DNA of 64,000 nt from a virus (taxonomy: Duplodnaviria; Heunggongvirae; Uroviricota; Caudoviricetes): positions 1 through 64,000 of the IMG/VR virus record IMGVR_UViG_2562617057_000010; one strand, 5' to 3'. The notes below the pieces were generated by a model. That model searched no databases. It saw nothing but the letters and a program-made list of their open reading frames with translations, and was not told where the DNA came from. Of this stretch, positions 356-40,464 are shown in pieces (position 1 is the first letter of the stretch; each line of letters opens with the position of its first letter). Both the position numbers and the translations under genes were made by a program.

Positions 356-367
356 CTTTTTTCCCGA

Positions 368-2698: not shown

Positions 2699-2777
2699 CA
2701 CGTCTGTGAGATAGGGTGCCACTTCAGCCAACCTTAGCAACCGATTGACGGGGGATTGCTCCCCCGTCGCGGTTTCC

Positions 2778-7471: not shown

Positions 7472-7472
7472 A

Positions 7473-19677: not shown

Positions 19678-19699
19678 CGGATATCCGACCGGATATCCG
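19678..19699. promoter_or_regulatory. Tandem palindromic operator candidates
   Basis: CGGATATCCG twice (19678-19687, 19690-19699), 30 bp upstream of ner start in the c/ner divergent region. Confidence 0.45.
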
Positions 19700-19728
19700 C
19701 GCGGGTAATTTTGTAGGGTAAAGGAAAG

Positions 19729-19980
19729 ATGAGACAAAGAGAAGATCGCGACCGCGATTGGCCTTCGCTAAAGATTCAGCTGGCGCTCAAAGATAACGGG
19801 TGGTCTTCCTTCCGGGAGCTTTCACTCCATGCTGGTTATGCTCAGGATTCACTGAAAGCGGTGGTTCGTACACCGAACAAAAAATACGAACGCGTAATTT
19901 CTGACGCTATAGGTGTACCGCCAGAAATCATCTGGCCCAGCCGGTATCGTAACGATGGATTTATCAGGAAGGCGTCGTGA
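19729..19980 (+). CDS. ner: Ner-like DNA-binding protein
   Basis: 83 aa with Ner/Nlp signature PEIIWPSRY; first gene of early operon. Confidence 0.8.
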   Translation: MRQREDRDRDWPSLKIQLALKDNGWSSFRELSLHAGYAQDSLKAVVRTPNKKYERVISDAIGVPPEIIWPSRYRNDGFIRKAS

Positions 19981-19981
19981 T

Positions 19982-22087
19982 ATGCAGTCGTACGTTACCG
20001 TAAATGACCTGCTCGGCGTACCAGGAATGCCAGCCACCACAAAAGGCATCCGACAGGCGTTACAGCGTTTTTCTCGTGATCTTGGTGACGTTAGTCGCCG
20101 TCGGGAAGGCACAAAAGCCATTGAGTACCACATTGATTGTCTGCCTGAAATAACACGAAAGGCACTGCGTGAACGCTATGTGGAACAGCTGGTGGCTACA
20201 GAGAACAATGTTTCTGAAGTGAAAGCTGTTACCAGAAAAACACGCAATCCTGACGCTGTCCAGGCAATCGAAGCATATCGCGGTTCTCCACAACTGATGG
20301 AAGAACGCCTGAATGCGCTGACCGAAAACCAGCGCCGGGTATCTGAAGCAAGGGCTGCACTGGTGGTGGAGGTGCTGAAGCTGGAAAGCGACGGTAATCT
20401 CGGGCGACTGAAAGCCATCAACTTTCTTGTTGAAAAAGCCCGTAAAGGTGAATTACCGGAGCGCCTGCAACAAGCCGCAGTTAATGCCAATGCAAAGCGT
20501 GGTGCCAATCGCACCATCAGTCGTGACCCGCTTTATCAGTGGGTGCTGAAATACAACCAGTCGCAGAACGCAGCCGAACGACTGCTGTTACTGGCACCAG
20601 GAAAGCGCGACGAAATAAAACCGGAAGAAATTAGCTGGCTACCTGAATTTCTGGCGCAGTATCGCCAGGCGAATGGCAGACCTATGTCAGAAGCCTACGA
20701 GGATTTTGTCGCGGAATGGCAGCGTCGCCATGCTGACGAACCATACATGCTGGAGGTGATGCCTTCTTACGATGTGGTGCGTTATGCCATGAAGAAATTG
20801 CCGGAAGTGGTGAAACAAAAAGGGCGTGTTACCGGCAGTGAATACCGTCAGCTTGAAGGATTCACCCGCCGCGACTGGACAGCTATGCCGGTGAATTATG
20901 TCTGGATTGGTGACGGTCACGGTATGAAGCTGAAATGTGCGCATCCGGTTCACGGGCGTCCATTTTCGCCGGAAGTTACGTTTGTCATTGATGGTGGAAC
21001 CCGGTTTGTGGTTGGCTGGAGTCTTGATCTTGCTGAAAACGTGTTTGCTGTTGCCGGTGCGATACAGCACGGTATTCGTAATCACGGGAAACCCTTCCTG
21101 TATTACTCGGATAATGGTTCCGGTGAAACGGCAGACATGCTGGATAAAGAGATCGTCGGGATTCTGCCCCGTCTGGGGATTAACCACCCCACCGGTATTG
21201 CCGGAAATCCGCAGGGGCGCGGCATTATTGAGCGCCTGAACCGGACGCTGCCGATGCGTATAGCCAGGAGGTATCGCACCTATTTTGGCAGGGGTGCTGA
21301 CCGGGAATCGTTGCGAGTACTTAATCGTGATCTGCGTTCAGCGTTTAATGCCCTGCAACAGGACAAGCCGCTGAATGCTCGCCAGAAATCTGCAATGCGC
21401 GAGCTGCCGTCCTGGTCAGAACTGATTGAGGCTATTCGCGAAGGCGTGGAATGGTACAACAACCGCCCGCATTCTGAACTGCCGATGAAACCAAACGGGA
21501 AGCATTGCAGCCCGGCTGAGTTCAGGAAAAAACGCCTGGCGGAAGAAAACACCGAAATTGAGTGGCTGAGCGATCTTGAGCTGCGCGACATGTTCCGTCC
21601 GATGGTGGAGCGTCCGGTAAGACGCTGTGAAATCAAATGGCTTGGGAATATTTATTACGCGCCGGAGCTGCGTGATGAACATGGTCGCAAAGTGCTTATC
21701 AGCTATGACATTCATGATGCAGAGCGAATTACAGTGCGCCGTAAGGATGGCAGTTTTATTTGTGAGGCGATATGGAACGGCAATAAACGCGCAGCCTTTC
21801 CTGTCAGTGCGGAATATCACAAACAGCAGCAGCGTATTAAAGGAATGCGCAAACGCGCTGAGGGAAAAATTCGTGATGCTGAAGATGAAGGTATTCAGGT
21901 TATTGAACAAAAAACGACAGAACCCTGGCTGGGGAATGTTTATCGCCCTGTGGGTAATGTGGTGACAGTTCAGCCTCAGGCTCCTGAGGAGACGCTTGAT
22001 AATGCATACAACGCTGAGCGTGATGAATATCTGAATCATTCACTGGATATTCTGGAACAGAAAAGACGTAAAAAGCTGTTTAATTAA
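19982..22087 (+). CDS. A: MuA-like DDE transposase
   Basis: about 702 aa from ATG 19982; integrase-core motifs; C-terminus ERDEYLNHSLDILEQKRRKK resembles the MuA C-terminal tail. Confidence 0.9.
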   Translation: MQSYVTVNDLLGVPGMPATTKGIRQALQRFSRDLGDVSRRREGTKAIEYHIDCLPEITRKALRERYVEQLVATENNVSEVKAVTRKTRNPDAVQAIEAYRGSPQLMEERLNALTENQRRVSEARAALVVEVLKLESDGNLGRLKAINFLVEKARKGELPERLQQAAVNANAKRGANRTISRDPLYQWVLKYNQSQNAAERLLLLAPGKRDEIKPEEISWLPEFLAQYRQANGRPMSEAYEDFVAEWQRRHADEPYMLEVMPSYDVVRYAMKKLPEVVKQKGRVTGSEYRQLEGFTRRDWTAMPVNYVWIGDGHGMKLKCAHPVHGRPFSPEVTFVIDGGTRFVVGWSLDLAENVFAVAGAIQHGIRNHGKPFLYYSDNGSGETADMLDKEIVGILPRLGINHPTGIAGNPQGRGIIERLNRTLPMRIARRYRTYFGRGADRESLRVLNRDLRSAFNALQQDKPLNARQKSAMRELPSWSELIEAIREGVEWYNNRPHSELPMKPNGKHCSPAEFRKKRLAEENTEIEWLSDLELRDMFRPMVERPVRRCEIKWLGNIYYAPELRDEHGRKVLISYDIHDAERITVRRKDGSFICEAIWNGNKRAAFPVSAEYHKQQQRIKGMRKRAEGKIRDAEDEGIQVIEQKTTEPWLGNVYRPVGNVVTVQPQAPEETLDNAYNAERDEYLNHSLDILEQKRRKKLFN

Positions 22088-22121
22088 CGTTTACACAAAA
22101 TTTAATTATGAGGTTACTCCG

Positions 22122-23075
22122 ATGAATATTTCTGATATTCGCGAAGAACTACGCACACTTGTAGAAAGTGAAAAAGTCACTTTTAAACAAATTGCTATTG
22201 AGAGTGATATTTCTACCGGGACTGTCAGTGCGTTTATTAACGATAAATACAGCGGCGATAATGAACGTATCGCACAGGTACTGAAGTGCTGGCTTGACGA
22301 TTATCTTGCTGCCGCAGACCTGCCGGAATTGCCTGGTTTTGTTCAAACGCAGACGGTAAAACAAATCTGGACAAGTATACGCTTTGCCAGCCTGACAGAG
22401 AGTATTGCTGTTATCTGCGGTAATCCTGGTGTGGGTAAATCTGAAGCAGCCAAAGAGTATCGCCGTACCAATAATAACGTCTGGATGATCACCATGGCAC
22501 CATCCCGTGTCAGTGTTCTGGAATGTCTTACGGAACTGGCGTTTGAGCTGGGAATGAACGGTATCCCACGCTGCAAGGGGCCGTTATCCCGTGAATTGCG
22601 CCGTCGTCTTGGGGGAACGCATGGGGTGGTTATTGTAGATGAAGCAGACCATCTTGATATTGCGGCGCTGGAAGAACTTCGTTTGTTACAGGAATCAACC
22701 CGTATTGGCCTGGTATTGATGGGTAATCACCATCTTTACACGAATATGACGGGGGGGAGCAAAACGGTTGAGTTTGCCCGTCTGTTTTCGCGCATAGCAA
22801 AACGCACGGCTATCAAAGCGCCCAAAGTTAACGATGTAAAAGCGATTGCGGAAGCCTGGGATGTTACCGCCAAAAAAGAGCAGGAATTCTTACTGGAGAT
22901 TGCACAGAAACCAGGTGCAATTCGCACCATGACTTACACATTACGTCTTGCTGCCATGAATGCTTACGGTAAAGGCAAACGTGTTAACGAAGATTACCTG
23001 CGTGAGGCTTACGAAGAACTGGATCAGGATGTGGATGTTCAGGAACAGTTGGGTATAAGGAGAGCGAAATCATGA
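22122..23075 (+). CDS. B: MuB-like transposition ATPase
   Basis: 317 aa, Walker A GNPGVGKS, Walker [10 protein letters not shown]. Confidence 0.9.
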
Positions 23076-23299
23076 TGTCACGAAATATAAAAATGGCAAC
23101 GGATGCGCAGAACTGGTTACAGGCGCGCGGGAGTCATGTAAATGAATCATATCTCGGCGTGGCACGTCCGATTCTTGAAATCACTTACCCACCGGTGGAA
23201 CTGGTAAAAAGCGCGGTCAGAATTATGGAGCATAAGTCCGGGGTGGCCCGTTCTGTATGGACGGCCCGTCTTAATGGTTGCCAGATTATCTGGAGATAA
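23072..23299 (+). CDS. Small early protein (Kil-like position)
   Basis: 75 aa, start overlaps B stop (ATGA). Confidence 0.4.
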
Positions 23300-23301
23300 C
23301 G

Positions 23302-23532
23302 ATGTGTACTAAAGCTGAAAAATATATTGAATGGGTTAAACGGGTACAGAATAACAATGTGCCTCTGACTGCATTTAATTGCCCCAAATGCAAAGAGCAA
23401 ATTATGACGCAATGCTCACCAGAAAATGAAGTATGGGACTCCTTTGCATGTTGTCCGTGGTGCAGCGCGGTTTTCTTTAAGCAGGTAAAAGGCGCGAAGG
23501 TAAAAGCCAGCGCAGTTATTCAGAATCAATAA
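23302..23532 (+). CDS. Small zinc-ribbon early protein
   Basis: CPKC...CPWC motifs. Confidence 0.4.
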   Translation: MCTKAEKYIEWVKRVQNNNVPLTAFNCPKCKEQIMTQCSPENEVWDSFACCPWCSAVFFKQVKGAKVKASAVIQNQ

Positions 23533-23543
23533 GGAGAAACAAA

Positions 23544-23807
23544 ATGGCAAAGGTAATTATTGAAATTAAAAATACAGTATCTGGAACTAAAGGACGGCAT
23601 TTGCGCACCAGTATTGCGGTAGGTGGTAGTGTGGAAATGGAAGGGGATGAGGCTACACTTGCAGGTCTGGTGGCGTTATTGGTGCTTAACAAAAGCCAGA
23701 AAATAATTAATGAGTCAGCTCATGAAGCCATTGAGATTTTGAAAAACGATGGTGTCATCACAGGTGGCAGTGTCACTGAAATGGCTGTTGAAAAAACATG
23801 TCACTGA
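23544..23807 (+). CDS. Early protein, unknown function
   Basis: 87 aa, tightly packed in early operon. Confidence 0.4.
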   Translation: MAKVIIEIKNTVSGTKGRHLRTSIAVGGSVEMEGDEATLAGLVALLVLNKSQKIINESAHEAIEILKNDGVITGGSVTEMAVEKTCH

Positions 23808-23821
23808 AAGGAACGCTGACA

Positions 23822-24241
23822 ATGAATGTCAAAATCCGAAATGAAATTCAGGCATTAATCCGAATTCAGGAACGCAATAACAACGGTGGTGAATTACGCG
23901 AGTTTATTTGCGCCCGGAAAGTTGATGATTGTGGTGAAAAGACTTACCTGATTGCCTTTGACCATTACAGCATTTGTGCACGTTACTGTGGTGAATCGAT
24001 ATTCTGTGCCATTGTGTATGGTAATGCGTTTGATGTGGATTTATGGGAGTACGTTATGGACCGTGAATACATCTGCGCATCAGACCCGAAAGCCCGTGAG
24101 ATGTGGCAGCGTATCTGGCGCGATTACCGGTTAATGGCAAAAGGCTGGGCACGCTGCTGTTATTCCTCGCTTGCCCTGAAAGCGGTTCAGTTATCGCTGC
24201 GGCATATTCCGGCATCACTGCGCGAGCCTCTGTTGTACTGA
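23822..24241 (+). CDS. Early protein, unknown function (Cys-rich)
   Basis: about 140 aa from ATG 23822. Confidence 0.4.
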   Translation: MNVKIRNEIQALIRIQERNNNGGELREFICARKVDDCGEKTYLIAFDHYSICARYCGESIFCAIVYGNAFDVDLWEYVMDREYICASDPKAREMWQRIWRDYRLMAKGWARCCYSSLALKAVQLSLRHIPASLREPLLY

Positions 24242-24253
24242 GTGGTGACCGGA

Positions 24254-24541
24254 ATGATGTGTAAGCGTAAACGCTGGTCACGCGAAGACCGGGAATTTAT
24301 CGAAGCCAGTGTCGGGAAAATGACCGTCGAGGAAATGGCGAAAAAACTGAACGTTGCCCCAACAGCCCTACAGGCACATGCCAGAAGGCACGGAATATCG
24401 TTGTGTGCATACCGGGTCAGTGAGCACGACAAATATTTGTGTCGTGAACTTTATAAAGAAGGGCTGGCTATTCATGTCATTGCCCAAAAGATGGAATTAA
24501 GCAATCGTGCTGTATCCGGCATTGTATACAGCGAATATTAA
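24254..24541 (+). CDS. Early protein with HTH-like segment
   Basis: about 95 aa from ATG 24254. Confidence 0.4.
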   Translation: MMCKRKRWSREDREFIEASVGKMTVEEMAKKLNVAPTALQAHARRHGISLCAYRVSEHDKYLCRELYKEGLAIHVIAQKMELSNRAVSGIVYSEY

Positions 24542-24559
24542 TTAACAGGAGCTTTATTT

Positions 24560-25084
24560 ATGGCTAAATCAGCAAAACGAATCAGGAACGCCGCAGCGGC
24601 TTATGTTCCGCAATCCCGCGATGCTGTGGTATGTGATATCCGCCGGATTGGGAACCTGCAACGCGAAGCGGCACGACTTGAAACGGAAATGAATGACGCT
24701 ATCGCTGAGATTACGGAGAAATTTGCAGCCCGGATTGCACCGCTTAAAACCGATATTGAAACCCTTTCAAAAGGCGTTCAGGGATGGTGTGAAGCGAACC
24801 GCGACGAACTGACGAACGGCGGCAAAGTGAAGACGGCAAATCTTGTCACCGGCGATGTATCATGGCGTCAACGCCCGCCGTCAGTGAGCATTCGCGGCGT
24901 GGATGCCGTGATGGAAACGCTGGAGCGTCTTGGCCTGCAACGCTTTATTCGCACGAAGCAGGAAATCAACAGGGAAGCGATTTTACTGGAACCGAAAGCG
25001 GTCGCAGGCGTTGCCGGAATTACGGTTAAATCGGGAATTGAAGATTTTTCCATTATTCCGTTTGAACAGGATGCCGGTATTTAA
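24560..25084 (+). CDS. gam: Gam-like DNA-end-binding protein (Ku-like)
   Basis: 174 aa, same length as Mu Gam, strong recalled similarity; GGAG SD. Confidence 0.8.
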   Translation: MAKSAKRIRNAAAAYVPQSRDAVVCDIRRIGNLQREAARLETEMNDAIAEITEKFAARIAPLKTDIETLSKGVQGWCEANRDELTNGGKVKTANLVTGDVSWRQRPPSVSIRGVDAVMETLERLGLQRFIRTKQEINREAILLEPKAVAGVAGITVKSGIEDFSIIPFEQDAGI

Positions 25085-25182
25085 TACCACCATTAATATT
25101 TAATTAATTCACATTCTTTTAATTATTGGCGCGATGCGTCAGGGGACTACTCGCGCCTGAATCAGAACCGGAGAGAATGAAA

Positions 25183-25731
25183 ATGACAGCATGTGCTTAT
25201 TTTAAACTGAGTGACACAGCCGCTAACGCTTATACGATTCGCTGGCTGAAAGATGTTTCTGTTAAGCGTGACAAAATCATCTGCTCATTGCAGCGTGCGT
25301 TTGGCGCAGACGGTGTTTCCCTTGTCAGTAACAGAGGGTATGAACGGGTTGAATGTATCTGGATGAATCAATTAGCGCCGGAATTATGGCGTGGTAAATC
25401 AGACGGACTGTTTATTGGTGGATTTCCGTTTTATGGCGTTGTACCGGATATAACAACACCGGAAGGCCGAAACAATGCGACGCTTATTCAGGAACATGAA
25501 GAGCAACTCCGGAAATATCCCACATTCCCGGTCTGGTTGTGTAATGAACTCGGGGTTGATGTTGTACCCAACATGTTTGATCTCAAATCAGTCTGGACGA
25601 TGCACCACAGCCGTGACGGATTCGGCATTTTGTTTGAGGTGTGCCTGCTGGATGGTGAGGTTAAGGGACCGGTTCCTGCCGAATGCCAGCGCATTAAACA
25701 TTCTGAATTTGTGGCACTGACGGAGGAATAA
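25183..25731 (+). CDS. Early protein, unknown function
   Basis: about 183 aa from ATG 25183 (GGAGAG SD). Confidence 0.4.
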   Translation: MTACAYFKLSDTAANAYTIRWLKDVSVKRDKIICSLQRAFGADGVSLVSNRGYERVECIWMNQLAPELWRGKSDGLFIGGFPFYGVVPDITTPEGRNNATLIQEHEEQLRKYPTFPVWLCNELGVDVVPNMFDLKSVWTMHHSRDGFGILFEVCLLDGEVKGPVPAECQRIKHSEFVALTEE

Positions 25732-25734
25732 CCG

Positions 25735-26265
25735 GTGATTGATGCAAAAGTTCTGAACGGTGTCAGCACATTATTACGGGCTCACGGGCGTCTGACCTGT
25801 GGGGTTCTGGCAGAGAAAATGCAAATGCCACCCTCTGCAATGGTGTATTTCCTGCGTGATGCAGTTGATGCCGGTGCACTGACTGAGCTGAATGGCTTTT
25901 ACGATGTTCCGCGCCCTCGTCCGACGCTGCCTGTAAGACAAAACGCAACAGAGCAGCCTTCTGTTGATGATGCGGTGTGGTGCAACTGGCGTCGCTCATT
26001 ACCCTGGGTGGAAGGTAATACCATCCCCGCGCTGGCAAAAGAGTTTGCGACGGGCGTGCTGACCTGTGAGTCAGTCCACATTGTTGCTGAGGTGGATAAC
26101 AGAATGTGCGAACAGGGAATGCCCCGTTTTGTGATGGCTTATATCGATATCCGGCTGGGGCGTTTTATTTGCAGTTCAAGCGCCTGGAATATCACCGACC
26201 ATGTACTGCGTTATCTCATTCTTGATTGTTCTCCGGCTCCCGCAGCGGTGCAGGAGGTGGCGTGA
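25735..26265 (+). CDS. Early protein, unknown function
   Basis: 176 aa, stop overlaps next start. Confidence 0.4.
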   Translation: MIDAKVLNGVSTLLRAHGRLTCGVLAEKMQMPPSAMVYFLRDAVDAGALTELNGFYDVPRPRPTLPVRQNATEQPSVDDAVWCNWRRSLPWVEGNTIPALAKEFATGVLTCESVHIVAEVDNRMCEQGMPRFVMAYIDIRLGRFICSSSAWNITDHVLRYLILDCSPAPAAVQEVA

Positions 26266-26795
26266 TGTTTTTTAAAACGTCAAATCCCGCAGCACTGCAG
26301 GCATGGGACCAGTTTATGGCGGACTGCCTGAAACTACGCGAAGAAGCCCGCCATCTTGATAAGGTTCTGGGCTGTGGTTGCCGGTCAGTATTCAGCACAG
26401 GTATTGGTGGGCGTCATTTTCATGGCGTGAATTTTCCGGGGAATGAGCGACCTTTCTCGCCGGAGTTGTGGACTGTACAACGCTCCGCATCAGGTAACAG
26501 TTGCAGGCCCAGAACTTCGCGGATACCTGTTCATCTCAGGGAGCAGGCAAGAGAGCTGGCGAAAATATGGCAGGAGAATATTCCGGTCACTTACGCCCGC
26601 ACAGACGCTCTTTTACCCGCACTGGGACTGGATTTCAGCGCAACAATATTCGGGCCGCTCCGGTGGTTCCGTGTTGGTGATGTGATTTACGTCATGACGG
26701 GGATGACACCCGCACAAGGCCGCATGACTGAAATCCTTTCGGACGAATTTATCCGGGCGCAAAAACAGGCAGAGGTAAACAATGGAAAACAATGA
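26265..26795 (+). CDS. Early protein, unknown function
   Basis: about 176 aa from ATG 26265 (AGGAGG SD). Confidence 0.4.
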   Translation: MFFKTSNPAALQAWDQFMADCLKLREEARHLDKVLGCGCRSVFSTGIGGRHFHGVNFPGNERPFSPELWTVQRSASGNSCRPRTSRIPVHLREQARELAKIWQENIPVTYARTDALLPALGLDFSATIFGPLRWFRVGDVIYVMTGMTPAQGRMTEILSDEFIRAQKQAEVNNGKQ

Positions 26796-26964
26796 AACAT
26801 CGTATTCGTGGCTGGGGAAATTTACCTCGGTGAAACAGGAATGCCCGACCTGCGGGAATGAATCCCCTGAATATCTGAAAGAGTGCCCTCATTGTGGCGG
26901 GCAGAAATGCAACCACTGCGATATGGGCGATGACACGGCGTGCATGAATTGTGAAGGTGAGTGA
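26782..26964 (+). CDS. Small zinc-ribbon protein
   Basis: 60 aa with CPTC...CPHC...CNHC...CMNC. Confidence 0.4.
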   Translation: MENNETSYSWLGKFTSVKQECPTCGNESPEYLKECPHCGGQKCNHCDMGDDTACMNCEGE

Positions 26965-27274
26965 TATGAATAATGGTGTATTTTCAAAATCAGAAGAGCT
27001 TGCCGCCCTGCTGATTGCCGGTGGTTTGCCGAAAAAAGAAGTGCATGACTTTGTGAATTTTGTATATGAGACGTCTCATGAAAAAGCTATTGATGAGGTC
27101 ATGGCGTACCGGTTTGGCATTATTGCTGAGTCACTGAGTCCTCACTGGATTATTGAAAATCTCCGCGCTATTGCTGATGGCAACGATAAATCAGCAGCCG
27201 TTGCTGCACTGGATGTGTTACGGCAAATGAGTCTGAAATTTTATCCTGAATTTATTCTGAGGGCCGCAAAATGA
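26951..27274 (+). CDS. Early protein, unknown function
   Basis: 107 aa. Confidence 0.4.
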   Translation: MKVSDMNNGVFSKSEELAALLIAGGLPKKEVHDFVNFVYETSHEKAIDEVMAYRFGIIAESLSPHWIIENLRAIADGNDKSAAVAALDVLRQMSLKFYPEFILRAAK

Positions 27275-27573
27275 ACAATGAAGATAAATTTACTCCCCTT
27301 AATATTGATAACGTCATGGCTGAAAAAGGGATGCTGGAACGTGTTCGCGCTATCGTTGAATATGGTATTAAGCATAATCTCACCGCCAGAGAAGTCCGTG
27401 ACATTATCAACCGCGAAATGAATCGTCTGGAAACAGTAGTGGCACTGCAAAATGAAACAGCCCGCGAGGAGTACATCCGCCGCAGGCTGGGGTTATCAGA
27501 CCAGGATATTGTTACTGACGCTCATGTGTTTGGGGCTTTTGAGATCCGTCAGCATCTGGGTCTAACGAACTGA
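27271..27573 (+). CDS. Early protein, unknown function
   Basis: 100 aa. Confidence 0.4.
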   Translation: MNNEDKFTPLNIDNVMAEKGMLERVRAIVEYGIKHNLTAREVRDIINREMNRLETVVALQNETAREEYIRRRLGLSDQDIVTDAHVFGAFEIRQHLGLTN

Positions 27574-27778
27574 TAATGTCTTCCATGATCTTTGACAGTT
27601 GCATGTTTTCGCGGCGGCTTGTTCTTATTGCAGGCGCATCTTTTAAAATCTCTGCTGAAGAGCTGAAAATGGCCTGGCCCTCTTCTGCGGTGATGATCGC
27701 CTTCTTCACCAGAAGGCGCACCAGTGCTGATGCAATCGCATAACCTGCAACATCATAAGGTTGTACATTATTTTCCAT
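27512..27778 (-). CDS. Reverse-oriented small protein inside the early region
   Basis: 88 aa on minus strand with GAGAGGA SD 7 nt upstream of ATG; only opposite-strand ORF with a good RBS in the early operon. Confidence 0.4.
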   Translation of the reverse strand: MENNVQPYDVAGYAIASALVRLLVKKAIITAEEGQAIFSSSAEILKDAPAIRTSRRENMQLSKIMEDIISSLDPDADGSQKPQTHERQ

Positions 27779-27847: not shown

Positions 27848-28399
27848 ATGAATCGCACATCCCTGATTAAATTAATCCATGTCGCCCGTCGGGAGCTACA
27901 ACTCGACGACGACACTTACCGCGCTTTTCTGATGCAGAAAACGGGCAAAATCAGTTGCCGCGAGCTGACGGTTACGCAACTGGAACAGGTGCTCAATGCC
28001 ATGAAAGAACGCGGCTTTAAGAAGCTGAATAAATACCCCCGTCGCCGCTTTAAGGAACATGTCACACCCCGTGAGAAGGTGTATAAAATCTGGCAGCAGA
28101 TGGCAGAAGACGGTTTTATTACCGATGGCGGTGATGTGGCGCTGGACAGATATGTTCAACGCCTGACCGCGAAACGCAACGGCGGACAGGGTGTTTCCAC
28201 ACTGGCGTGGTGTCATGGCGACACGCTGCTGACAGTCCTCGAAACACTCAAGCAGTGGCACATCCGCTGTATTCGTGAAGCCTTTTCCCGTCACGGGCTT
28301 CCGTTGCCGGTCAGTCCGTCCGGTCGTGAACTGCGCGGCTATGATGCCATGACGGCGGCTTATGCCCATGCCAGAAAGACACGGAGGATGGCACAATGA
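27848..28399 (+). CDS. gemA: GemA-like early protein
   Basis: 183 aa, GGAGG SD, immediately upstream of mor, matches Mu gemA size and position. Confidence 0.65.
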   Translation: MNRTSLIKLIHVARRELQLDDDTYRAFLMQKTGKISCRELTVTQLEQVLNAMKERGFKKLNKYPRRRFKEHVTPREKVYKIWQQMAEDGFITDGGDVALDRYVQRLTAKRNGGQGVSTLAWCHGDTLLTVLETLKQWHIRCIREAFSRHGLPLPVSPSGRELRGYDAMTAAYAHARKTRRMAQ

Positions 28400-28785
28400 C
28401 GGAAGATTTATTTGGTGATTTGCAGGATGACACCATCCTGGCACATCTTGACAATCCCGCCGAGGATACGTCACGCTTTCCGGCACTGCTGGCGGAGCTG
28501 AACGATTTACTGCGCGGGGAATTGTCCCGGCTGGGTGTTGATCCTGCCCATTCACTGGAGATTGTTGTGGCTATCTGTAAGCATCTGGGCGGCGGTCAGG
28601 TCTACATTCCACGCGGTCAGGTTCTGGACTCGCTGATTCGGGATTTGCGTATCTGGAATGATTTTAACGGTCGCAACGTCAGCGAACTGACCACCCGTTA
28701 TGGTGTCACTTTCAATACGGTTTACAAGGCCATTCGCCGGATGCGACGGCTGAAATACCGCCAGTACCAGCCCTCACTTCTGTAA
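28396..28785 (+). CDS. mor: Mor-like middle-operon transcription activator
   Basis: 129 aa, Mor/C family, C-terminal HTH. Confidence 0.85.
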   Translation: MTEDLFGDLQDDTILAHLDNPAEDTSRFPALLAELNDLLRGELSRLGVDPAHSLEIVVAICKHLGGGQVYIPRGQVLDSLIRDLRIWNDFNGRNVSELTTRYGVTFNTVYKAIRRMRRLKYRQYQPSLL

Positions 28786-28790
28786 ACAGT

Positions 28791-28816
28791 AAAGCCGGTT
28801 AATCCGGCTTTTTTTA
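28791..28816 (+). terminator. Rho-independent terminator after mor
   Basis: GCCGG-TTAAT-CCGGC then T7. Confidence 0.8.
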
Positions 28817-31547: not shown

Positions 31548-32134
31548 CAGGAGGCGTGATGGACAGGAAAACACGGGGCCGGGCTTCAAAAGTGGATTTA
31601 CTGCCGGAAAACGTACGTAAAACGCTGCATGAAATGCTGCGTGACAAAGCGATTCCACAGGCCCGCATTCTGGAAGAAATTAACGCACTGATTGAAGACG
31701 CTGGCCTGCCGGATGAGATGAAACTCTCCCGTTCCGGTCTGAACCGTTACGCGACGAACGTCGAGCAGGTAGGCCATAACCTGCGACAGATGCGTGAAAT
31801 GACGTCAGCACTGACCGCAGAACTTGGCGACAGGCCAATGGGAGAAACCACAAAGCTGATTCTGGAAATGGCCCGCAGCCAGCTTTTTAAGGCCATGATG
31901 CGGCAAATCGAAAACCCGGAATCTGACGTGGATATTGACCTGCTGAAAAATGCCATGCTGGCGGCACAGCGTCTGGAATCCACGGCAATGTCGAGCCACC
32001 GGCGCGAGAAAGAAATCCGCCAGGCATTCGCAGAAGAAGCAGCAAACGCCGTCAGTGAAGAACTGCGCGGGCAGGATGGCATCAGCGAAGAACTGGAGCA
32101 GCGCATCCGTGATGTACTGCTGGGGAAAGCGTAG
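31544..32134 (+). CDS. Putative terminase small subunit / DNA-binding protein
   Basis: 196 aa, position immediately before large terminase. Confidence 0.5.
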   Translation: MTGGVMDRKTRGRASKVDLLPENVRKTLHEMLRDKAIPQARILEEINALIEDAGLPDEMKLSRSGLNRYATNVEQVGHNLRQMREMTSALTAELGDRPMGETTKLILEMARSQLFKAMMRQIENPESDVDIDLLKNAMLAAQRLESTAMSSHRREKEIRQAFAEEAANAVSEELRGQDGISEELEQRIRDVLLGKA

Positions 32135-32408
32135 GCGTTACGTTATGAAAAATAATTACAAAGCACAGCTAATCAGTGCCCATAAAAAAGCCTTCAGGAT
32201 TGCAACATTGTCTGATGTCCGGTTGATACACCAGATTCGGGATGTGCTTGTTCAGGCCATGGCTTCAGGCAATTCATGGCATACCACCATAAAGCAACTA
32301 AGGATGTTGTCCTGAGGAGATGAAAATGGCGGATGCCCGGCGACGGCAGGTCAGGTGATCGGTTGTTCCTGGATTCGCCGGTAACGTTTTACACCGGATT
32401 TTTCACCC

Positions 32409-34064
32409 ATGAGCACCAGAGAAAGCAAACTTAAAGCCCTTCATGCGCCCCGCAAAATCGACCTGCGTAGGGAAGCCGAACTGCTCGGCGTGAATATCGT
32501 TACCGATATCGGGGAAGCACAGCCCCGCAATGAACCGGTTTTTCTGGGCTATCAGCGCCGCTGGTTTGAGGATGAAAGCCAGATTTGCATCGCTGAAAAA
32601 TCCCGTCGTACCGGTCTGACATGGGCCGAAGCGGGCCGCAATGTCATGACGGCAGCAAAGCCGCGCCGCCGTGGCGGTCGCAACGTCTTTTATGTGGGTT
32701 CCCGTCAGGAAATGGCGCTGGAATACATCGCCGCCTGTGCCCTGTTTGCCCGCGCCTTTAACCAGCTGGCAAAGGCTGACGTATGGGAGCAGACCTTCTG
32801 GGACAGTGACAAAAAAGAAGAAATCCTCACTTATATGATCCGTTTCCCTAACAGCGGATTTAAGGTGCAGGCGCTGTCAAGCCGTCCGTCTAACCTGCGT
32901 GGTTTGCAGGGGGACGTGGTGATTGATGAGGCGGCATTTCATGAAGCCCTGGACGAACTCCTGAAAGCGGCCTTTGCTCTCATCATGTGGGGTGCCCGCG
33001 TGCGGATCATATCGACACATAACGGCGTCGATAACCTGTTTAACCAGTACATTCAGGATGCGCGTGAGGGGCGCAAGGATTACAGCGTTCACCGCATCAC
33101 GCTGGATGATGCCATCGCTGACGGACTGTACCGGCGTATCTGTTACGTCACGAATCAGCCGTGGTCGCCGGAAGCGGAAAAAGCCTGGCGTGATGGCCTG
33201 TACCGGAATGCGCCGAATAAAGAGAGTGCCGACGAGGAATACGGCTGTATTCCAAAAAAATCCGGGGGCGCTTATCTGTCACGCGTGCTGATTGAAGCCG
33301 CCATGACGCCAGCGCGGGATATCCCGGTTCTGCGTTTTGAAGCCCCGGACGATTTTGAATCGCTGACACCACAAATGCGCCACGGCATCGTTCAGGACTG
33401 GTGTGAACAGGAGCTGCTCCCGTTGCTCGATGCGCTGTCGCCGCTCAATAAACACGTACTGGGCGAAGACTTTGCACGCCGTGGCGACCTGACGGTGTTT
33501 GTGCCGCTTGCCATCACTCCTGACTTACGCAAACGCGAATGTTTCCGCGTGGAGCTGCGTAATGTGACCTATGACCAGCAGCGACAAATCCTTTTATTCA
33601 TTCTGTCCCGTTTGCCCCGTTTTACCGGCGCTGCATTTGATGCCACCGGTAACGGCGGTTATCTGGCAGAAGCCGCCCGTCTGATTTATGGCCCGGAGAT
33701 GATCGACTGCATCAGTCTGACCGCCGCCTGGTATCAGGAGTGGATGCCGAAACTGAAAGGCGAGTTTGAAGCGCAGAACATCACGATTGCCCGGCATCAG
33801 ACCACACTCGATGACCTGCTTCATATCAAGGTGGACAAAGGTATTCCGCAGATTGATAAGGGGCGCACAAAAGATGAAAGCGGTAAAGGCCGACGACATG
33901 GTGACTTTGCCGTGGCGCTCTGTATGGCTGTCAGGGCGTCTTATATGAATGGTTTTGTTATCGACGAGGACAGCATACAGGCGCTGCCACCACGCCACCG
34001 TGGTGATGATGTTGATAACGATGATTTTGATGATTATCACCAGTTTGAACGAGGGGGCTGGTAA
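32409..34064 (+). CDS. Terminase large subunit
   Basis: 551 aa, ATPase plus nuclease architecture, Mu gp28 position. Confidence 0.8.
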   Translation: MSTRESKLKALHAPRKIDLRREAELLGVNIVTDIGEAQPRNEPVFLGYQRRWFEDESQICIAEKSRRTGLTWAEAGRNVMTAAKPRRRGGRNVFYVGSRQEMALEYIAACALFARAFNQLAKADVWEQTFWDSDKKEEILTYMIRFPNSGFKVQALSSRPSNLRGLQGDVVIDEAAFHEALDELLKAAFALIMWGARVRIISTHNGVDNLFNQYIQDAREGRKDYSVHRITLDDAIADGLYRRICYVTNQPWSPEAEKAWRDGLYRNAPNKESADEEYGCIPKKSGGAYLSRVLIEAAMTPARDIPVLRFEAPDDFESLTPQMRHGIVQDWCEQELLPLLDALSPLNKHVLGEDFARRGDLTVFVPLAITPDLRKRECFRVELRNVTYDQQRQILLFILSRLPRFTGAAFDATGNGGYLAEAARLIYGPEMIDCISLTAAWYQEWMPKLKGEFEAQNITIARHQTTLDDLLHIKVDKGIPQIDKGRTKDESGKGRRHGDFAVALCMAVRASYMNGFVIDEDSIQALPPRHRGDDVDNDDFDDYHQFERGGW

Positions 34065-35602
34065 TGGGCCGTATTCTGGATATTTCCGGGCAGCCGTTTG
34101 ATTTTGACGATGAAATGCAGACCCGCAGCGATGAGCTGGCAATGGTCATGAAGCGCACGCAGGAGCATCCTTCCAGTGGTGTGACGCCGAACCGGGCCGC
34201 GCAGATGCTGCGTGATGCCGAACGCGGTGATCTGACAGCACAGGCTGACCTGGCCTTTGATATGGAAGAAAAGGACACCCACCTTTTTTCCGAACTGAGC
34301 AAGCGCCGCCTTGCCATTCAGGCGCTGGAATGGCGCATCGCTCCGGCACGTGATGCCAGCGCACAGGAGAAAAAAGACGCCGACATGCTGAATGAATATC
34401 TGCATGATGCGGCGTGGTTTGAAGATGCCCTGTTTGATGCCGGTGATGCCATTCTCAAGGGTTATTCCATGCAGGAGATTGAATGGGGCTGGCTGGGCAA
34501 AATGCGCGTGCCGGTGGCGCTGCATCATCGCGATCCGGCGCTGTTCTGCGCGAACCCCGATAATCTGAACGAATTACGTCTGCGTGATACGTCTTATCAC
34601 GGGCTGGAGCTGCAACCGTTCGGCTGGTTTATGCACCGGGCCAAATCCCGCACCGGGTATGTTGGCACCAATGGCCTTGTGCGCACGCTTATCTGGCCTT
34701 TTATTTTTAAAAACTATTCCGTGCGTGATTTTGCAGAGTTTCTGGAAATTTACGGACTCCCCATGCGCGTCGGTAAATATCCGACCGGCTCCACAAACCG
34801 TGAGAAAGCCACGCTGATGCAGGCCGTGATGGATATCGGGCGACGTGCCGGTGGCATTATTCCGATGGGGATGACGCTGGATTTTCAGAGCGCCGCAGAT
34901 GGTCAGTCAGACCCCTTTATGGCGATGATTGGCTGGGCAGAAAAAGCGATTTCAAAAGCCATTCTGGGCGGCACCCTGACCACAGAGGCTGGCGATAAAG
35001 GTGCACGGTCGCTGGGTGAAGTGCATGATGAGGTTCGCCGGGAAATCCGTAACGCGGATGTGGGCCAGCTTGCCCGCAGTATTAACCGTGACCTGATTTA
35101 TCCCCTGCTGGCACTGAACAGTGACAGCACCATTGATATTAACCGCCTGCCGGGCATTGTATTTGATACCAGTGAAGCGGGTGATATTACGGCACTGTCT
35201 GACGCCATTCCGAAACTGGCGGCGGGAATGCGTATTCCGGTCTCCTGGATACAGGAAAAACTTCATATTCCACAGCCGGTCGGTGATGAAGCCGTGTTTA
35301 CTGCTCAACCGGTTGTCCCGGATAACGGTCCGCAGAAAGAGGCCGCATTATCCGCTGAAGATATCCCGCAGGAGGATGATATCGACCGGATGGGCGTCTC
35401 ACCGGAAGACTGGCAGCGTTCGGTTGATCCCCTGCTGAAACCCGTCATTTTTTCTGTGCTGAAAGATGGCCCGGAAGCCGCCATGAACAAAGCCGCTTCA
35501 TTATATCCGCAGATGGATGATGCAGAACTTATCGACATGCTGACCCGTGCCATTTTTGTTGCCGATATATGGGGGCGTCTGGATGCCGCAGCAGACCATT
35601 GA
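34064..35602 (+). CDS. Portal protein (Mu H-like)
   Basis: 512 aa following terminase. Confidence 0.8.
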   Translation: MGRILDISGQPFDFDDEMQTRSDELAMVMKRTQEHPSSGVTPNRAAQMLRDAERGDLTAQADLAFDMEEKDTHLFSELSKRRLAIQALEWRIAPARDASAQEKKDADMLNEYLHDAAWFEDALFDAGDAILKGYSMQEIEWGWLGKMRVPVALHHRDPALFCANPDNLNELRLRDTSYHGLELQPFGWFMHRAKSRTGYVGTNGLVRTLIWPFIFKNYSVRDFAEFLEIYGLPMRVGKYPTGSTNREKATLMQAVMDIGRRAGGIIPMGMTLDFQSAADGQSDPFMAMIGWAEKAISKAILGGTLTTEAGDKGARSLGEVHDEVRREIRNADVGQLARSINRDLIYPLLALNSDSTIDINRLPGIVFDTSEAGDITALSDAIPKLAAGMRIPVSWIQEKLHIPQPVGDEAVFTAQPVVPDNGPQKEAALSAEDIPQEDDIDRMGVSPEDWQRSVDPLLKPVIFSVLKDGPEAAMNKAASLYPQMDDAELIDMLTRAIFVADIWGRLDAAADH

Positions 35603-39631: not shown

Positions 39632-40042
39632 ATGTCAGGCACTTCGCTTAATTCACAACGGCTGGACACTTCTCGCATCACTTGCACGGCGATTATTAAA
39701 TGCCTTCGTCCGGTCTACCGCCGCGCCGGAATCGCCTTTACACGTGGCGAAAACACCGTGGAAGTCACCGAAGAACAACTGGCGATCATTCGTGCCGACA
39801 GCGTGCTGTCTGTGGTATCTGCATCGTCAGCAGAAACGCTCGCTGAGGCTGGGGGGCTGGACGTTCTGGGTGTGGGCGATCTGAACGCCCGTATCCGTGC
39901 GACCGTTGCCGGTCTGGATAAGGCAAACCCGGAACACTTTACCGCAGGGGGGGAACCCAAAGTGAAAGCCGTCAGTGCGGCGCTGGGGGAACCGGTAAGC
40001 AGCGCGCAAATCAAAGCGGCGCAGGCTGAGGCGGATGCATGA
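39632..40042 (+). CDS. Head-tail region protein, unknown function
   Basis: 136 aa, AAGGAGGAG SD. Confidence 0.5.
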   Translation: MSGTSLNSQRLDTSRITCTAIIKCLRPVYRRAGIAFTRGENTVEVTEEQLAIIRADSVLSVVSASSAETLAEAGGLDVLGVGDLNARIRATVAGLDKANPEHFTAGGEPKVKAVSAALGEPVSSAQIKAAQAEADA

Positions 40043-40464
40043 ATTACGCGACGGTAAATGACCTGTGCGCCCGCTATACACGTACGCGGCTGGATATTCT
40101 CACCCGCCCTAAAACAGCGGACGGGCAGCCGGATGATGCCGTGGCAGAACAGGCACTGGCAGATGCTTCGGCCTTTATTGATGGCTATCTCGCCGCGCGC
40201 TTTGTTCTGCCGCTTACCGTCGTCCCCTCACTGCTGAAACGGCAGTGTTGCGTGGTGGCCTGGTTTTATCTGAATGAATCACAACCCACCGAGCAGATCA
40301 CCGCTGCCTACAGGGACACAGTGCGCTGGCTGGAACAGGTGCGCGATGGCAAAACAGATCCCGGCGTGGAAAGCAGGACGGCAGCCTCGCCGGATGGTGA
40401 AAACCTTGTGCAGGTGCAGTCTGACGCGCCGGTCTTCTCACGAAAACAGAAGGGGTTTATCTGA
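40039..40464 (+). CDS. Head-tail joining protein (Mu gp36-like)
   Basis: 141 aa. Confidence 0.5.
   Translation: MNYATVNDLCARYTRTRLDILTRPKTADGQPDDAVAEQALADASAFIDGYLAARFVLPLTVVPSLLKRQCCVVAWFYLNESQPTEQITAAYRDTVRWLEQVRDGKTDPGVESRTAASPDGENLVQVQSDAPVFSRKQKGFI

What the first reader, a model, noticed from the sequence alone, without database searches (positions are those of the whole stretch)
23072..27573. Dense array of about 12 small early proteins including zinc-ribbon and HTH proteins with no assignable function
Between B and gemA lie tightly packed, often overlapping ORFs (60-185 aa), including two Cys4 zinc-ribbon proteins (23302-23532, 26782-26964) and three mid-size unknowns (25183-26795). 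Only gam is recognisable. This is the semi-essential early region where Mu-type phages keep host-takeover and anti-defence functions, making it the most likely place for uncharacterised anti-restriction or anti-defence activities.
Basis: inference. Interest (0 to 1): 0.4.

Follow-up and report, generated by a model that had tools for sequence, protein, structure and literature searches.

The report
Phage Mu semi-essential early gene block
This stretch is the well-known "semi-essential" early gene block of a Mu-type prophage in E. coli, almost identical to that of Shigella phage SfMu. Most of its small proteins still have no known function, but the block itself is ordinary and already described.

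Summary
The ORF array is real. Twelve tightly packed + strand genes lie between transposition gene B and gemA. All but gp9 have a clear Shine-Dalgarno-like motif, 96.6% of the stretch is coding, and dN/dS is 0.06-0.49 wherever divergence allows a measurement.

It is not new. The stretch is 96.3% identical over its full length to phage SfMu and 92.6% identical over 81% to phage Mu. Ten ORFs are orthologues of Mu gp5 (kil) to gp14. The other two are SfMu gp11 and gp14.

The second "Cys4" protein actually has four CxxC pairs (Cys8).

For the ten uncharacterised ORFs, Pfam, NCBIfam, PHROGs, PADLOC and PDB sequence searches assigned no function and showed no similarity to any known defence or anti-defence family. 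AlphaFold models of two of them also gave no assignment.

One small new result: the SfMu-gp11-like protein (distant DUF5420) and Mu gp12 are remote paralogues with a fold that has no solved relative.

The anti-defence reading remains a reasonable but untested guess. Only Gam is an established nuclease inhibitor. Interest is low.

The parts
23072..23299 (+). kil (Mu gp5), 75 aa. Host-killing and septation-inhibition protein.
   Evidence: 97% protein identity to Mu, 99% to SfMu. phrog_2743 'Kil protein for bacterial septation inhibition', E 7e-43. Annotated as kil in M64097 and NC_000929. Start overlaps the B stop by 4 nt.
23302..23532 (+). Mu gp6 (E5), 76 aa. Zinc-ribbon protein (C27-x2-C30 ... 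C51-x2-C54). SfMu-type allele.
   Evidence: 99% to SfMu and 79% to Mu. The cysteines are invariant. Weak zinc-ribbon Pfam hits, E 0.01-0.03, below cut-off. phrog_3786, unknown function. An orthologue carries the newer Pfam family PF26833 Phage_Mu_gp6. dN/dS 0.31 against Mu.
23544..23807 (+). Mu gp7 (E6), 87 aa, function unknown. Mu-type allele; D108, vB_YpM_5 and PhiR68_1 carry a different 89-aa allele.
   Evidence: 89% to Mu and 100% to vB_YpM_3, with no match in D108, YpM_5 or PhiR68_1. phrog_10252, unknown function. No Pfam, NCBIfam or PDB match. dN/dS 0.13-0.20.
23822..24241 (+). Mu gp8 (E7), 139 aa, cysteine-rich (8 Cys), function unknown.
   Evidence: 90-95% to all Muvirus compared and 76% in a Salmonella Mu-like prophage. 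phrog_3690, unknown function. No Pfam, NCBIfam, PADLOC or PDB match. dN/dS 0.11-0.16.
24254..24541 (+). Mu gp9 (E8), 95 aa. Tandem helix-turn-helix, putative DNA-binding regulator. An alternative GTG start lies at 24242.
   Evidence: phrog_323 'transcriptional regulator, D5-like', E 4e-27. Pfam HTH_Tnp_1 E 4.5e-5 (24.0 bits, cut-off 24.1) plus many weak HTH hits at residues 22-45 and 65-88. NCBIfam HTH_Cbp1 E 7e-4, below cut-off.
24560..25084 (+). gam (Mu gp10), 174 aa. Binds double-stranded DNA ends and inhibits host nuclease.
   Evidence: Pfam Phage_Mu_Gam E 2e-41. phrog_491 'Mu Gam-like end protection', E 1e-71. 92% to Mu and 98% to SfMu.
25177..25731 (+). SfMu gp11 homologue, 184 aa. Distant member of the DUF5420 superfamily. 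Accessory cassette absent from Mu and D108.
   Evidence: - **Similarity and insertion:** 97% to SfMu, none in Mu. It is a clean 553-bp insertion relative to Mu, at 25167-25719.
- **Family size:** only 14 cluster representatives at E<=1e-3 among 1.84 billion proteins. Eight of the ten representatives scanned hit PF17457 DUF5420 at E<=0.01, seven above its cut-off.
- **Conserved motif:** a nearly invariant C-terminal IKHSEF(V/I)ALTEE.
- **Frequency:** present in 6 of 5426 complete E. coli genomes.
25735..26265 (+). Mu gp11 (E10-E12), 176 aa, GTG start. N-terminal domain that also occurs as a stand-alone gene, plus a Gp11_C domain. Function unknown.
   Evidence: 93% to Mu. Pfam PF25754 Gp11_C E 1.5e-40 at residues 90-167. 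A Salmonella Mu-like prophage encodes only residues 1-74, as a separate 75-aa gene. No PDB match.
26265..26795 (+). Mu gp12 (E13), 176 aa, Pfam PF26885. Remote paralogue of the DUF5420-like protein. Intact here, frameshifted and unannotated in the SfMu record.
   Evidence: - **Similarity:** 96% to Mu. Split over two frames in SfMu. Homologues carry PF26885.
- **Paralogy:** hhalign against the DUF5420-like alignment gives E 7.7e-5 over 150 columns. The score of 33.9 compares with 13.0 +/- 1.9 (maximum 18.4) in 100 column-shuffled controls.
26782..26964 (+). Mu gp13 (E14), 60 aa, acidic (pI 4.5). Four CxxC pairs (Cys8), probably two zinc sites.
   Evidence: 95-98% to Mu, D108 and SfMu, with all 8 Cys invariant. 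Weak DnaJ_CXXCXGXG and zinc-ribbon hits below cut-off. Lar family TIGR03655 at 14.1 bits against a cut-off of 39.6. phrog_5584. The same domain forms the C-terminus of the 231-residue phrog_6418 family profile.
26966..27274 (+). SfMu gp14 homologue, 102 aa, function unknown. Accessory cassette absent from Mu and D108.
   Evidence: 98% to SfMu, 99% to vB_YpM_5, none in Mu. It is a 292-bp insertion relative to Mu (26976-27267), bounded by the repeated start-codon sequence ATGAAYAATG. phrog_1988, unknown function. No Pfam or PDB match. Present in 20 of 5426 complete E. coli genomes.
27271..27573 (+). Mu gp14 (E15), 100 aa, function unknown.
   Evidence: 98% to Mu and 33% to the D108 allele. phrog_6075, unknown function. 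No significant Pfam or PDB match.
27512..27778 (-). Mu gp15, 88 aa, antisense. Overlaps the 3' end of gp14 by 62 nt. Lies just outside or at the edge of the finding.
   Evidence: 95% to Mu and 100% to SfMu. phrog_8747 E 1e-60. Absent from D108 and PhiR68_1. Too few substitutions to test selection.
27848..28399 (+). gemA (Mu gp16), the right-hand landmark.
   Evidence: Pfam GemA E 9e-31. 97% to Mu.
28791..28811 (+). Intrinsic terminator after mor, the probable end of the early transcript.
   Evidence: 8-bp stem with 5 G-C pairs followed by TTTTT. A rho-independent terminator is annotated at the same place in D108.

Best explanation
**What it is.** The region is the semi-essential early (SE/SEE) segment of the early operon of a transposable Muvirus prophage, inserted in an E. 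coli chromosome.

**How it is expressed.** By analogy with Mu, it is transcribed from the early promoter Pe as part of one long transcript (ner-A-B-kil ... gemA-mor). That transcript ends at the terminator after mor. The tight spacing and overlapping stop/start codons give coupled translation.

**Gene content (shown).**
- A conserved proximal half: kil, gp6, gp7, gp8, gp9, gam.
- A mosaic distal half: SfMu-gp11-like/DUF5420, Mu gp11, Mu gp12, gp13, SfMu-gp14-like, Mu gp14. Here whole genes are swapped in and out between related phages at gene boundaries.

**Function (established for Mu, inferred here by 92-97% protein identity).**
- Kil arrests host cell division.
- Gam binds double-stranded DNA ends and protects phage DNA from host exonuclease.

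**Function (inferred only).** The other ten are small soluble cytoplasmic proteins that probably act stoichiometrically by binding nucleic acid or host proteins:
- a tandem-HTH protein (gp9);
- two zinc-ribbon proteins (gp6, gp13);
- a two-domain protein (Mu gp11);
- two paralogous alpha/beta proteins with no solved relative (DUF5420-like and gp12);
- four proteins with no recognisable features (gp7, gp8, SfMu-gp14-like, Mu gp14).

They most likely modulate host DNA metabolism, phage replication and immunity. These are the genetically mapped but unassigned arm, cim and sot-type functions. They also contribute to the host toxicity of the region. They are dispensable for plaque formation.
For: **Identity and synteny.**
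- 96.3% nucleotide identity over 100% of the stretch to SfMu, and 92.6% over 81% to Mu.
- ORF-by-ORF orthology in the same order.
- The flanking landmarks B, gemA, mor and C are present.

**Real genes.** Shine-Dalgarno-like motifs for 11 of 12 and overlapping starts. dN/dS is 0.06-0.49.

**One operon.** There are no more promoter-like sites than in shuffled sequence. The only long G+C-rich + strand terminator follows mor.

**Kil and Gam.**

**Mosaic distal half.**. Cassette frequencies are 6 and 20 of 5426 E. coli genomes, against 90 genomes with the region.

**Soluble proteins.** The maximum 19-residue hydropathy is below 1.5 for all of them.

**Paralogy of DUF5420-like and gp12.**

**Literature.**
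- The SE region holds about 14 ORFs, largely uncharacterised. Deleting it restores host viability after MuBam infection (PMC3325207).
- SE functions are 'largely unknown' (PMC3820752).
- 'Small proteins with uncharacterized functions' (PMC8705779).
Against: - Nothing contradicts the identification of the region.
- The functional part is weak for ten of the twelve ORFs. No family, fold or context assigns an activity.
- The HTH and zinc-ribbon matches are below curated cut-offs.
- Transcription from Pe, dispensability and toxicity are carried over from Mu and were not tested on this prophage.
- This prophage has a different immunity and transposition module (B is only 78% identical in nucleotides). 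Regulation of the early operon could therefore differ in detail.
Confidence: 0.85

Rival explanations
1. This is an anti-defence island. One or more of the ten uncharacterised ORFs inhibits a host immune system (restriction-modification, RecBCD-linked, abortive infection or other). The variable distal cassettes would then be the arms-race component.
For: - Gam in the same block is a bona fide nuclease inhibitor.
- The genes are early, small, dispensable in Mu and mosaic between close relatives. That profile is typical of counter-defence genes.
- gp13 gives a sub-threshold hit to the Lar restriction-alleviation family.
Against: - No ORF reaches the cut-off of any anti-restriction, anti-CRISPR or other host-takeover family in Pfam, NCBIfam or PHROGs.
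- The R-M specificity-subunit resemblance is not reproduced by the paralogue gp12.
- No protein is strongly acidic in the way DNA mimics are.
- dN/dS of 0.06-0.49 shows no diversifying selection.
- The proximal half is conserved across phages that infect E. coli, Shigella, Yersinia and Salmonella. That fits a role in the phage's own development better than host-specific counter-defence.
Confidence: 0.3
2. These are lysogen-benefit or superinfection-exclusion genes. Some of the ORFs would be expressed at a low level in the lysogen and protect it against other phages or otherwise benefit the host.
For: - Low-level transcription from Pe across the SE genes was detected in Mu lysogens, and a host benefit was suggested (PMC3820752).
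- In the Pseudomonas transposable phage Fc02, the gene that follows ner in the lytic-cycle operon shows superinfection exclusion (PMC9936078).
- The two accessory cassettes are rare and patchy.
Against: - No match to any PADLOC defence model except a meaningless 14-bit hit.
- There are no membrane proteins, which are the usual exclusion effectors.
- The SE region as a whole is toxic to the host (PMC3325207).
- No internal promoter stands out.
Confidence: 0.12
3. Some of the small ORFs are not genes but chance reading frames in a transcribed spacer.
For: Several are very short (60-100 aa) and have no family with a known function. The old Mu annotation (M64097) lists many spurious overlapping ORFs on both strands.
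Against: - All 12 are conserved as intact frames in several phages and have dN/dS well below 1 wherever it can be measured.
- Eleven of the 12 have a clear Shine-Dalgarno-like motif.
- Two give confident AF2 models.
- The cysteine ligands are invariant.
- Only the antisense gp15 could not be tested, for lack of substitutions.
Confidence: 0.03

Closest known systems
Semi-essential early region of Shigella phage SfMu (NC_027382, gp5-gp16)
   Same: 96.3% nucleotide identity over the whole 4.5 kb, with the same genes in the same order. This includes the two genes that Mu lacks, SfMu gp11 and gp14.
   Different: - The Mu gp12 homologue is intact here. In the SfMu record it is split by a frameshift and left unannotated.
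- The prophage here has a different repressor, ner, A, B and ends.
Semi-essential early (SE/SEE) region of phage Mu (NC_000929, gp5 kil to gp14; old names E5-E15)
   Same: Ten of the 12 ORFs are orthologues at 79-98% protein identity, in the same order and with the same overlaps. They lie between B and gemA on the early transcript.
   Different: There are two extra genes, as insertions of 553 bp and 292 bp. gp6 is a diverged allele at 79%.
Pfam DUF5420 (PF17457) and Pfam PF26885 (Mu gp12 family)
   Same: - The 184-aa protein is linked to DUF5420 through intermediate sequences and shares its C-terminal motif.
- gp12 homologues carry PF26885.
- The two families align over nearly their full length.
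   Different: The window protein does not itself reach PF17457 at E<=0.1. Neither family has a known function or a solved structure.
Small accessory proteins encoded with the early genes of Pseudomonas transposable phages (for example Aqs1 of DMS3, which binds PilB, and gene 10 of Fc02)
   Same: They work in the same general way. They are small proteins encoded alongside the transposition genes that act on host processes or exclude other phages. The Aqs1-PilB interaction is used as a control in PMC10884400, and Fc02 exclusion is reported in PMC9936078. The position of Aqs1 in the DMS3 genome is from my own knowledge.
   Different: Sequence similarity was neither expected nor tested. The hosts and targets differ. 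This is an analogy, not membership.
Lambda pL-operon accessory genes (kil, gam, ral, cIII)
   Same: The logic is analogous: a dispensable early block combining a cell-division inhibitor, a RecBCD inhibitor and a restriction-alleviation protein. This is from my own knowledge and was not tested here.
   Different: The proteins are unrelated. Mu Gam is Ku-like (PMC3820752) and is not a homologue of lambda Gam (my own knowledge). No Ral or Lar homologue was found here.

Membership tests
Mu-type semi-essential early region | Located between transposition gene B and gemA/mor, same strand, on the early operon | tested here: met
   B is at 22122-23075, gemA at 27848-28399 and mor at 28396-28785, followed by a terminator at 28791-28811.
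Mu-type semi-essential early region | Contains kil and gam | tested here: met
   kil: phrog_2743 E 7e-43, 97% to Mu. gam: PF07352 E 2e-41.
Mu-type semi-essential early region | Gene-by-gene orthology and synteny with Mu gp5-gp14 | tested here: met
   Ten of 12 ORFs are 79-98% identical in protein to Mu, in the same order. The other two are 97-98% identical to SfMu gp11 and gp14.
Mu-type semi-essential early region | Dispensable for lytic growth, and toxic to the host when expressed | not testable with these tools
   Known for Mu (PMC3325207). Carried over here by homology only.
Zinc ribbon (gp6 and gp13) | Two CxxC pairs conserved across homologues | tested here: met
   In gp6, C27, C30, C51 and C54 are invariant. 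In gp13, four CxxC pairs are invariant.
Zinc ribbon (gp6 and gp13) | Score above the curated cut-off of a Pfam zinc-ribbon family | tested here: not met
   The best hits are zf-LITAF-like at 16.2 bits (cut-off 23.8) and DnaJ_CXXCXGXG at 19.3 bits (cut-off 32.7).
Lar family restriction alleviation protein (TIGR03655) | Score above the NCBIfam cut-off (39.6 bits) | tested here: not met
   gp13 scores 14.1 bits, E 0.043, over 21 residues only. gp6 has no hit.
Known anti-defence or host-takeover families (PHROGs category 'moron, auxiliary metabolic gene and host takeover'; Pfam and NCBIfam anti-restriction and anti-CRISPR models) | Significant profile match | tested here: not met
   Only Gam matches such a family (phrog_18351). 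The ten unknown ORFs match PHROGs of unknown function, except gp9, which matches a regulator family.
Known anti-phage defence systems (PADLOC-DB 2.0) | Significant match to a defence protein model | tested here: not met
   Nine of the 10 ORFs scanned have no hit. gp9 gives a 14-bit GajB hit at E 0.004, which is noise from its HTH.
DUF5420 (PF17457), for the 25177-25731 product | Direct match above the Pfam gathering score (26 bits) | tested here: not met
   There is no Pfam hit at E<=0.1 for the window protein. RefSeq nevertheless names the SfMu orthologue 'DUF5420 family protein'.
DUF5420 (PF17457), for the 25177-25731 product | Transitive homology and shared motifs with bona fide members | tested here: met
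   A profile built from the window family finds proteins that score 31-98 bits on PF17457. They share the PD..EG, P.F..W and C-terminal IKHSEFxALTEE motifs.
Helix-turn-helix DNA-binding protein (gp9) | Match to HTH profiles | tested here: inconclusive
   HTH_Tnp_1 scores 24.0 bits against a cut-off of 24.1, with about 15 other HTH families at E 5e-4 to 0.08 on two segments. phrog_323 'transcriptional regulator, D5-like' gives E 4e-27. There is no PDB match.

The most novel reading that the evidence does not exclude
The DUF5420-like protein and its remote paralogue Mu gp12 belong to one phage-specific alpha/beta family that has no solved relative. The DUF5420 side ends in a near-invariant IKHSEFxALTEE tail (gp12: EILSDEF). 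The most novel reading not excluded is that this family is a swappable set of early effectors, each blocking a different host factor or immune system. Together with the zinc-ribbon proteins gp6 and gp13, that would make the variable gam-to-gemA half of the region a counter-defence cassette array.
Probability: 0.2. Interest if true: 0.5.

Novelty: already known. Interest (0 to 1): 0.2.

Why it matters
As found, it matters little. The block is a near-copy of a region described in Mu decades ago and sequenced in SfMu, and nothing in it is unexpected.

Its residual value is as a reminder that ten conserved early genes of one of the best-studied phages still lack any assigned function. This copy carries the fullest complement among the sequences compared here. 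It has all Mu genes, an intact gp12 and both SfMu-specific cassettes.

The paralogy between DUF5420-like proteins and Mu gp12, and the split into a conserved kil-to-gam half and a mosaic gam-to-gemA half, give a rational order for deletion and expression experiments.

Tried and rejected
**Searches that assigned nothing.**
- Pfam, NCBIfam, PHROGs and PADLOC scans of the ORFs (PADLOC on the ten uncharacterised ones only). Beyond kil, gam, Gp11_C and GemA there were only sub-threshold HTH and zinc-ribbon hits.
- PDB sequence searches, with single sequences or profiles, for all ten uncharacterised ORFs. Every E-value was at or above 0.019, and only generic zinc-finger or repeat segments matched.
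- Rfam on 18.7-30 kb: no hit.
- Literature searches for any characterisation of Mu gp6-gp14. Nothing was found beyond 'uncharacterised'.

**Leads considered and dropped.**
- The AFDB50 fold library was not available.
- The Lar-like idea for gp13 is rejected as membership.
- The DNA-mimic idea is not supported by charge.
- Paralogy of SfMu-gp14-like with Mu gp14, and of gp12 with Mu gp11, was tested and not found (E 0.55 and 0.38).
- The first hhalign between the narrow DUF5420-like alignment and gp12 was not significant (E 0.089). It became significant only after adding remote members.
- P0089, an apparent Mor-gp12 fusion, is a deletion joining gp12 residues 1-87 to the late activator C. It is not functional evidence.

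**A failed shortcut.** Searching for Mu end sequences recalled from memory found nothing. This prophage has different ends.

Full report
**1. The observation**

The window between 23072 and 27573 holds twelve + strand ORFs of 60-184 aa. On the left is a MuB-type gene (22122-23075). On the right are gemA (27848-28399; Pfam GemA E 9e-31) and mor.

The genes are packed tightly:
- kil starts 4 nt inside the end of B.
- One stop and one start share base 26265.
- Two further pairs overlap by 14 and 4 nt.
- Apart from 92 nt after gam, the gaps are 1-18 nt, so only 153 of 4502 nt are non-coding.
- Eleven of the 12 starts have a clear GGAG/AGGAG/GAGG motif within 20 nt. gp9 has only a weak one.

I compared the region with Mu, SfMu, D108, two Yersinia phages and PhiR68_1. 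Every ORF with enough substitutions has dN/dS of 0.06-0.49, like the neighbouring B gene at 0.2. These are real, selected genes and not chance frames.

**2. What it is**

Megablast against phage records gives 96.3% identity over 100% of the stretch to Shigella phage SfMu. It gives 92.6% over 81% to phage Mu, with D108 and Mu-like Yersinia phages also matching. The annotation of those records, combined with tblastn of each window protein, gives a one-to-one map:

| Window coordinates | Identity |
|---|---|
| 23072-23299 | kil (Mu gp5) |
| 23302-23532 | gp6 / E5 |
| 23544-23807 | gp7 / E6 |
| 23822-24241 | gp8 / E7 |
| 24254-24541 | gp9 / E8 |
| 24560-25084 | gam |
| 25177-25731 | SfMu gp11 (no Mu counterpart) |
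| 25735-26265 | Mu gp11 / E10-12 |
| 26265-26795 | Mu gp12 / E13 |
| 26782-26964 | Mu gp13 / E14 |
| 26966-27274 | SfMu gp14 (no Mu counterpart) |
| 27271-27573 | Mu gp14 / E15 |

Mu gp15 lies antisense at 27512-27778.

This is the semi-essential early (SE or SEE) region of Mu. [quoted passage not shown] It is said to contain about 14 ORFs, few of which have an assigned phenotype. Its deletion restores host viability after infection with a replication-defective Mu (PMC3325207). Its functions are described as 'largely unknown' (PMC3820752) and its products as 'small proteins with uncharacterized functions' (PMC8705779).

The SfMu paper already noted that its ORF11 and ORF14 have no Mu counterpart (PMC4406740).

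**3.

- The first ORF is kil (phrog_2743 E 7e-43), so gam is not the only recognisable gene.
- The 60-aa protein has four invariant CxxC pairs (Cys8), not Cys4.
- gp6 is a Cys4 zinc ribbon with invariant ligands.
- gp9 is the only supported HTH protein, with two HTH segments. Its Pfam hits lie just below cut-off and phrog_323 'transcriptional regulator, D5-like' gives E 4e-27.

**4. Attempts to assign functions**

Pfam, NCBIfam, PHROGs and PADLOC gave nothing above curated cut-offs for the ten uncharacterised ORFs, apart from the Gp11_C domain of unknown function.

The only hint towards anti-restriction is a Lar-family hit for gp13 at 14.1 bits against a cut-off of 39.6. That fails the membership test.

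PDB sequence searches were negative for all ten. None of the proteins has a membrane-like segment, and none is strongly acidic.

I modelled the two proteins for which I could build alignments:

No solved fold can therefore be named for either.

**5. A small new result: two of the mid-size proteins are paralogues**

The SfMu-gp11-like family is tiny. Only 14 cluster representatives reach E<=1e-3 among 1.84 billion proteins. Most of its remote members match Pfam DUF5420. They share a nearly invariant C-terminal IKHSEF(V/I)ALTEE motif.

An alignment that includes those members aligns with the Mu gp12 family (PF26885) over 150 columns at E 7.7e-5. In my own control the real hhalign score was 33.9. 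One hundred column-shuffled versions gave 13.0 +/- 1.9, with a maximum of 18.4.

The two AF2 models also have the same order of secondary-structure elements: strand, long helix, hairpin, variable insert, two helices, three strands, C-terminal helix.

The SfMu authors guessed that the proteins unique to SfMu and those unique to Mu might be 'divergent homologues' (PMC4406740). For SfMu ORF11 and Mu gp12 this now has support. SfMu also carries a frameshifted gp12, and this prophage carries both genes intact.

Negative controls behaved as expected. SfMu-gp14-like against Mu gp14 gave E 0.55, and gp12 against Mu gp11 gave E 0.38.

**6. Architecture of the region**

The proximal half, kil to gam, is conserved. 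It is present in all Muvirus compared and, at 60-93% protein identity, in a Salmonella Mu-like prophage. gp7 exists as two alleles.

The distal half, gam to gemA, is mosaic:
- The DUF5420-like gene is present in SfMu and vB_YpM_3 only.
- gp12 is missing from vB_YpM_3.
- The SfMu-gp14-like gene is present in three of the six phages compared.
- PhiR68_1 replaces gp13-gp15 with other ORFs.
- The Salmonella prophage keeps only the N-terminal 74 residues of Mu gp11, as a separate gene.

Relative to Mu, the two extra genes are clean insertions of 553 bp (25167-25719) and 292 bp (26976-27267). The second is bounded by the repeated start sequence ATGAAYAATG. The first preserves the ribosome-binding site of the next gene inside its own last codons.

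Among 5426 complete E. coli genomes, 90 carry a match to the region. Only 6 carry the DUF5420-like cassette and 20 carry the SfMu-gp14-like cassette.

There is no internal promoter or terminator of note. The only long G+C-rich + strand terminator follows mor, at 28791-28811. No Rfam family matches.

**7. Mechanism**

- **Shown:** identity, synteny, coding status, and the domains listed above.
- **Established for Mu and inferred here by 92-97% protein identity:** Kil blocks cell division, and Gam binds DNA ends and inhibits host exonuclease.
- **Inferred only:** the other ten are small soluble binders of nucleic acid or host proteins, expressed from the early transcript. They modulate replication, immunity and host physiology, and together they account for the toxicity and semi-essential phenotype of the region.

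The anti-defence reading is plausible in general terms, because the genes are early, small, dispensable and mosaic. It has no positive evidence beyond Gam. Purifying selection and conservation of the proximal half across phages of four host genera argue mildly against a host-specific arms race for that half.

**8. Verdict**

The finding is a correct description of a region that is already known and catalogued. Newer Pfam releases even have families for Kil, gp6, gp11_C, gp12 and gp18. Interest is low.

The most novel reading left open is that the DUF5420/gp12 family and the zinc-ribbon proteins are swappable early effectors against host factors or defences. I put this at about 0.2.

Noticed in passing
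window 18727-55094: The Mu-like prophage (about 36.4 kb) sits inside a P2-family prophage of E. coli, between the head completion/stabilization gene (gpL) and the terminase small subunit gene (gpM).

The two flanks (17000-18726 and 55095-57000) are contiguous at 99.6-99.9% identity in E. coli FDAARGOS_943, which has the empty site. The insertion is flanked by an exact 4-bp repeat, CTTT, which becomes 5 bp only if one mismatch is allowed.
   Followed up: partly
window 18727-23066 and 54990-55094: The prophage is a hybrid. From kil to mom it is 94-98% SfMu-like. The repressor, ner, A, B and both ends come from another Mu-like lineage:
- SfMu positions 1-3166 and its last ~94 bp have no match.
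- B is only 78% identical in nucleotides to every Muvirus B compared.
- The ends carry a different repeated motif, ATCTTGAATAAYTTYC. It occurs three times at the right end and once, inverted, at the left end, 16 nt from each terminus.

The junction is at the B/kil boundary. The same left arm, at 98.9%, is in E. coli FDAARGOS_943.
   Followed up: partly
window 51458-54243: The invertible G segment is flipped relative to SfMu, and the gin invertase gene is missing. SfMu positions 35467-36073 have no match anywhere in the window. S' is truncated (53569-54081, minus strand), and com/mom follows directly. Tail-fibre choice is probably locked.
   Followed up: partly
L001 (SfMu NC_027382) 5693-6218, equivalent to window 26265-26795: The SfMu record contains a Mu gp12 homologue split over two reading frames and left unannotated. 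The published statement that Mu orf12 has no homologue in SfMu (PMC4406740) therefore reflects a frameshift, whether a pseudogene or a sequencing error, and not absence.
   Followed up: yes
window 6930-8445: Sequences 88-89% identical to parts of the SfMu tail-fibre/G-segment genes lie upstream. They probably belong to the tail-fibre genes of the surrounding P2-like prophage.
   Followed up: no
window 25413-25439 and 26402-26428: A 27-nt direct repeat (78% identical) lies inside the DUF5420-like gene and inside Mu gp12. It encodes IGGFPFYGV and IGGRHFHGV. It may be a remnant of their common origin, although the profile alignment puts these segments out of register.
   Followed up: no
window 26782-26964 (gp13): PHROG phrog_6418 matches gp13 over positions 175-231 of its 231-residue profile. 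In some phages, therefore, this Cys8 module forms the C-terminal domain of a larger protein. The N-terminal part was not identified.
   Followed up: no
P0089 (public protein, homologue of window 26265-26795): A 212-aa protein joins residues 1-87 of Mu gp12 to the late activator C. It looks like a deletion derivative of a Mu-like prophage that has lost everything from gp13 to C.
   Followed up: partly
window 32130-32409 and 40042-40587: Two further differences from SfMu lie in the late region. There are about 280 extra bases between the gp27 and gp28 equivalents. The segment corresponding to SfMu gp36/gp37 (SfMu 20953-21495) has been replaced.
   Followed up: no
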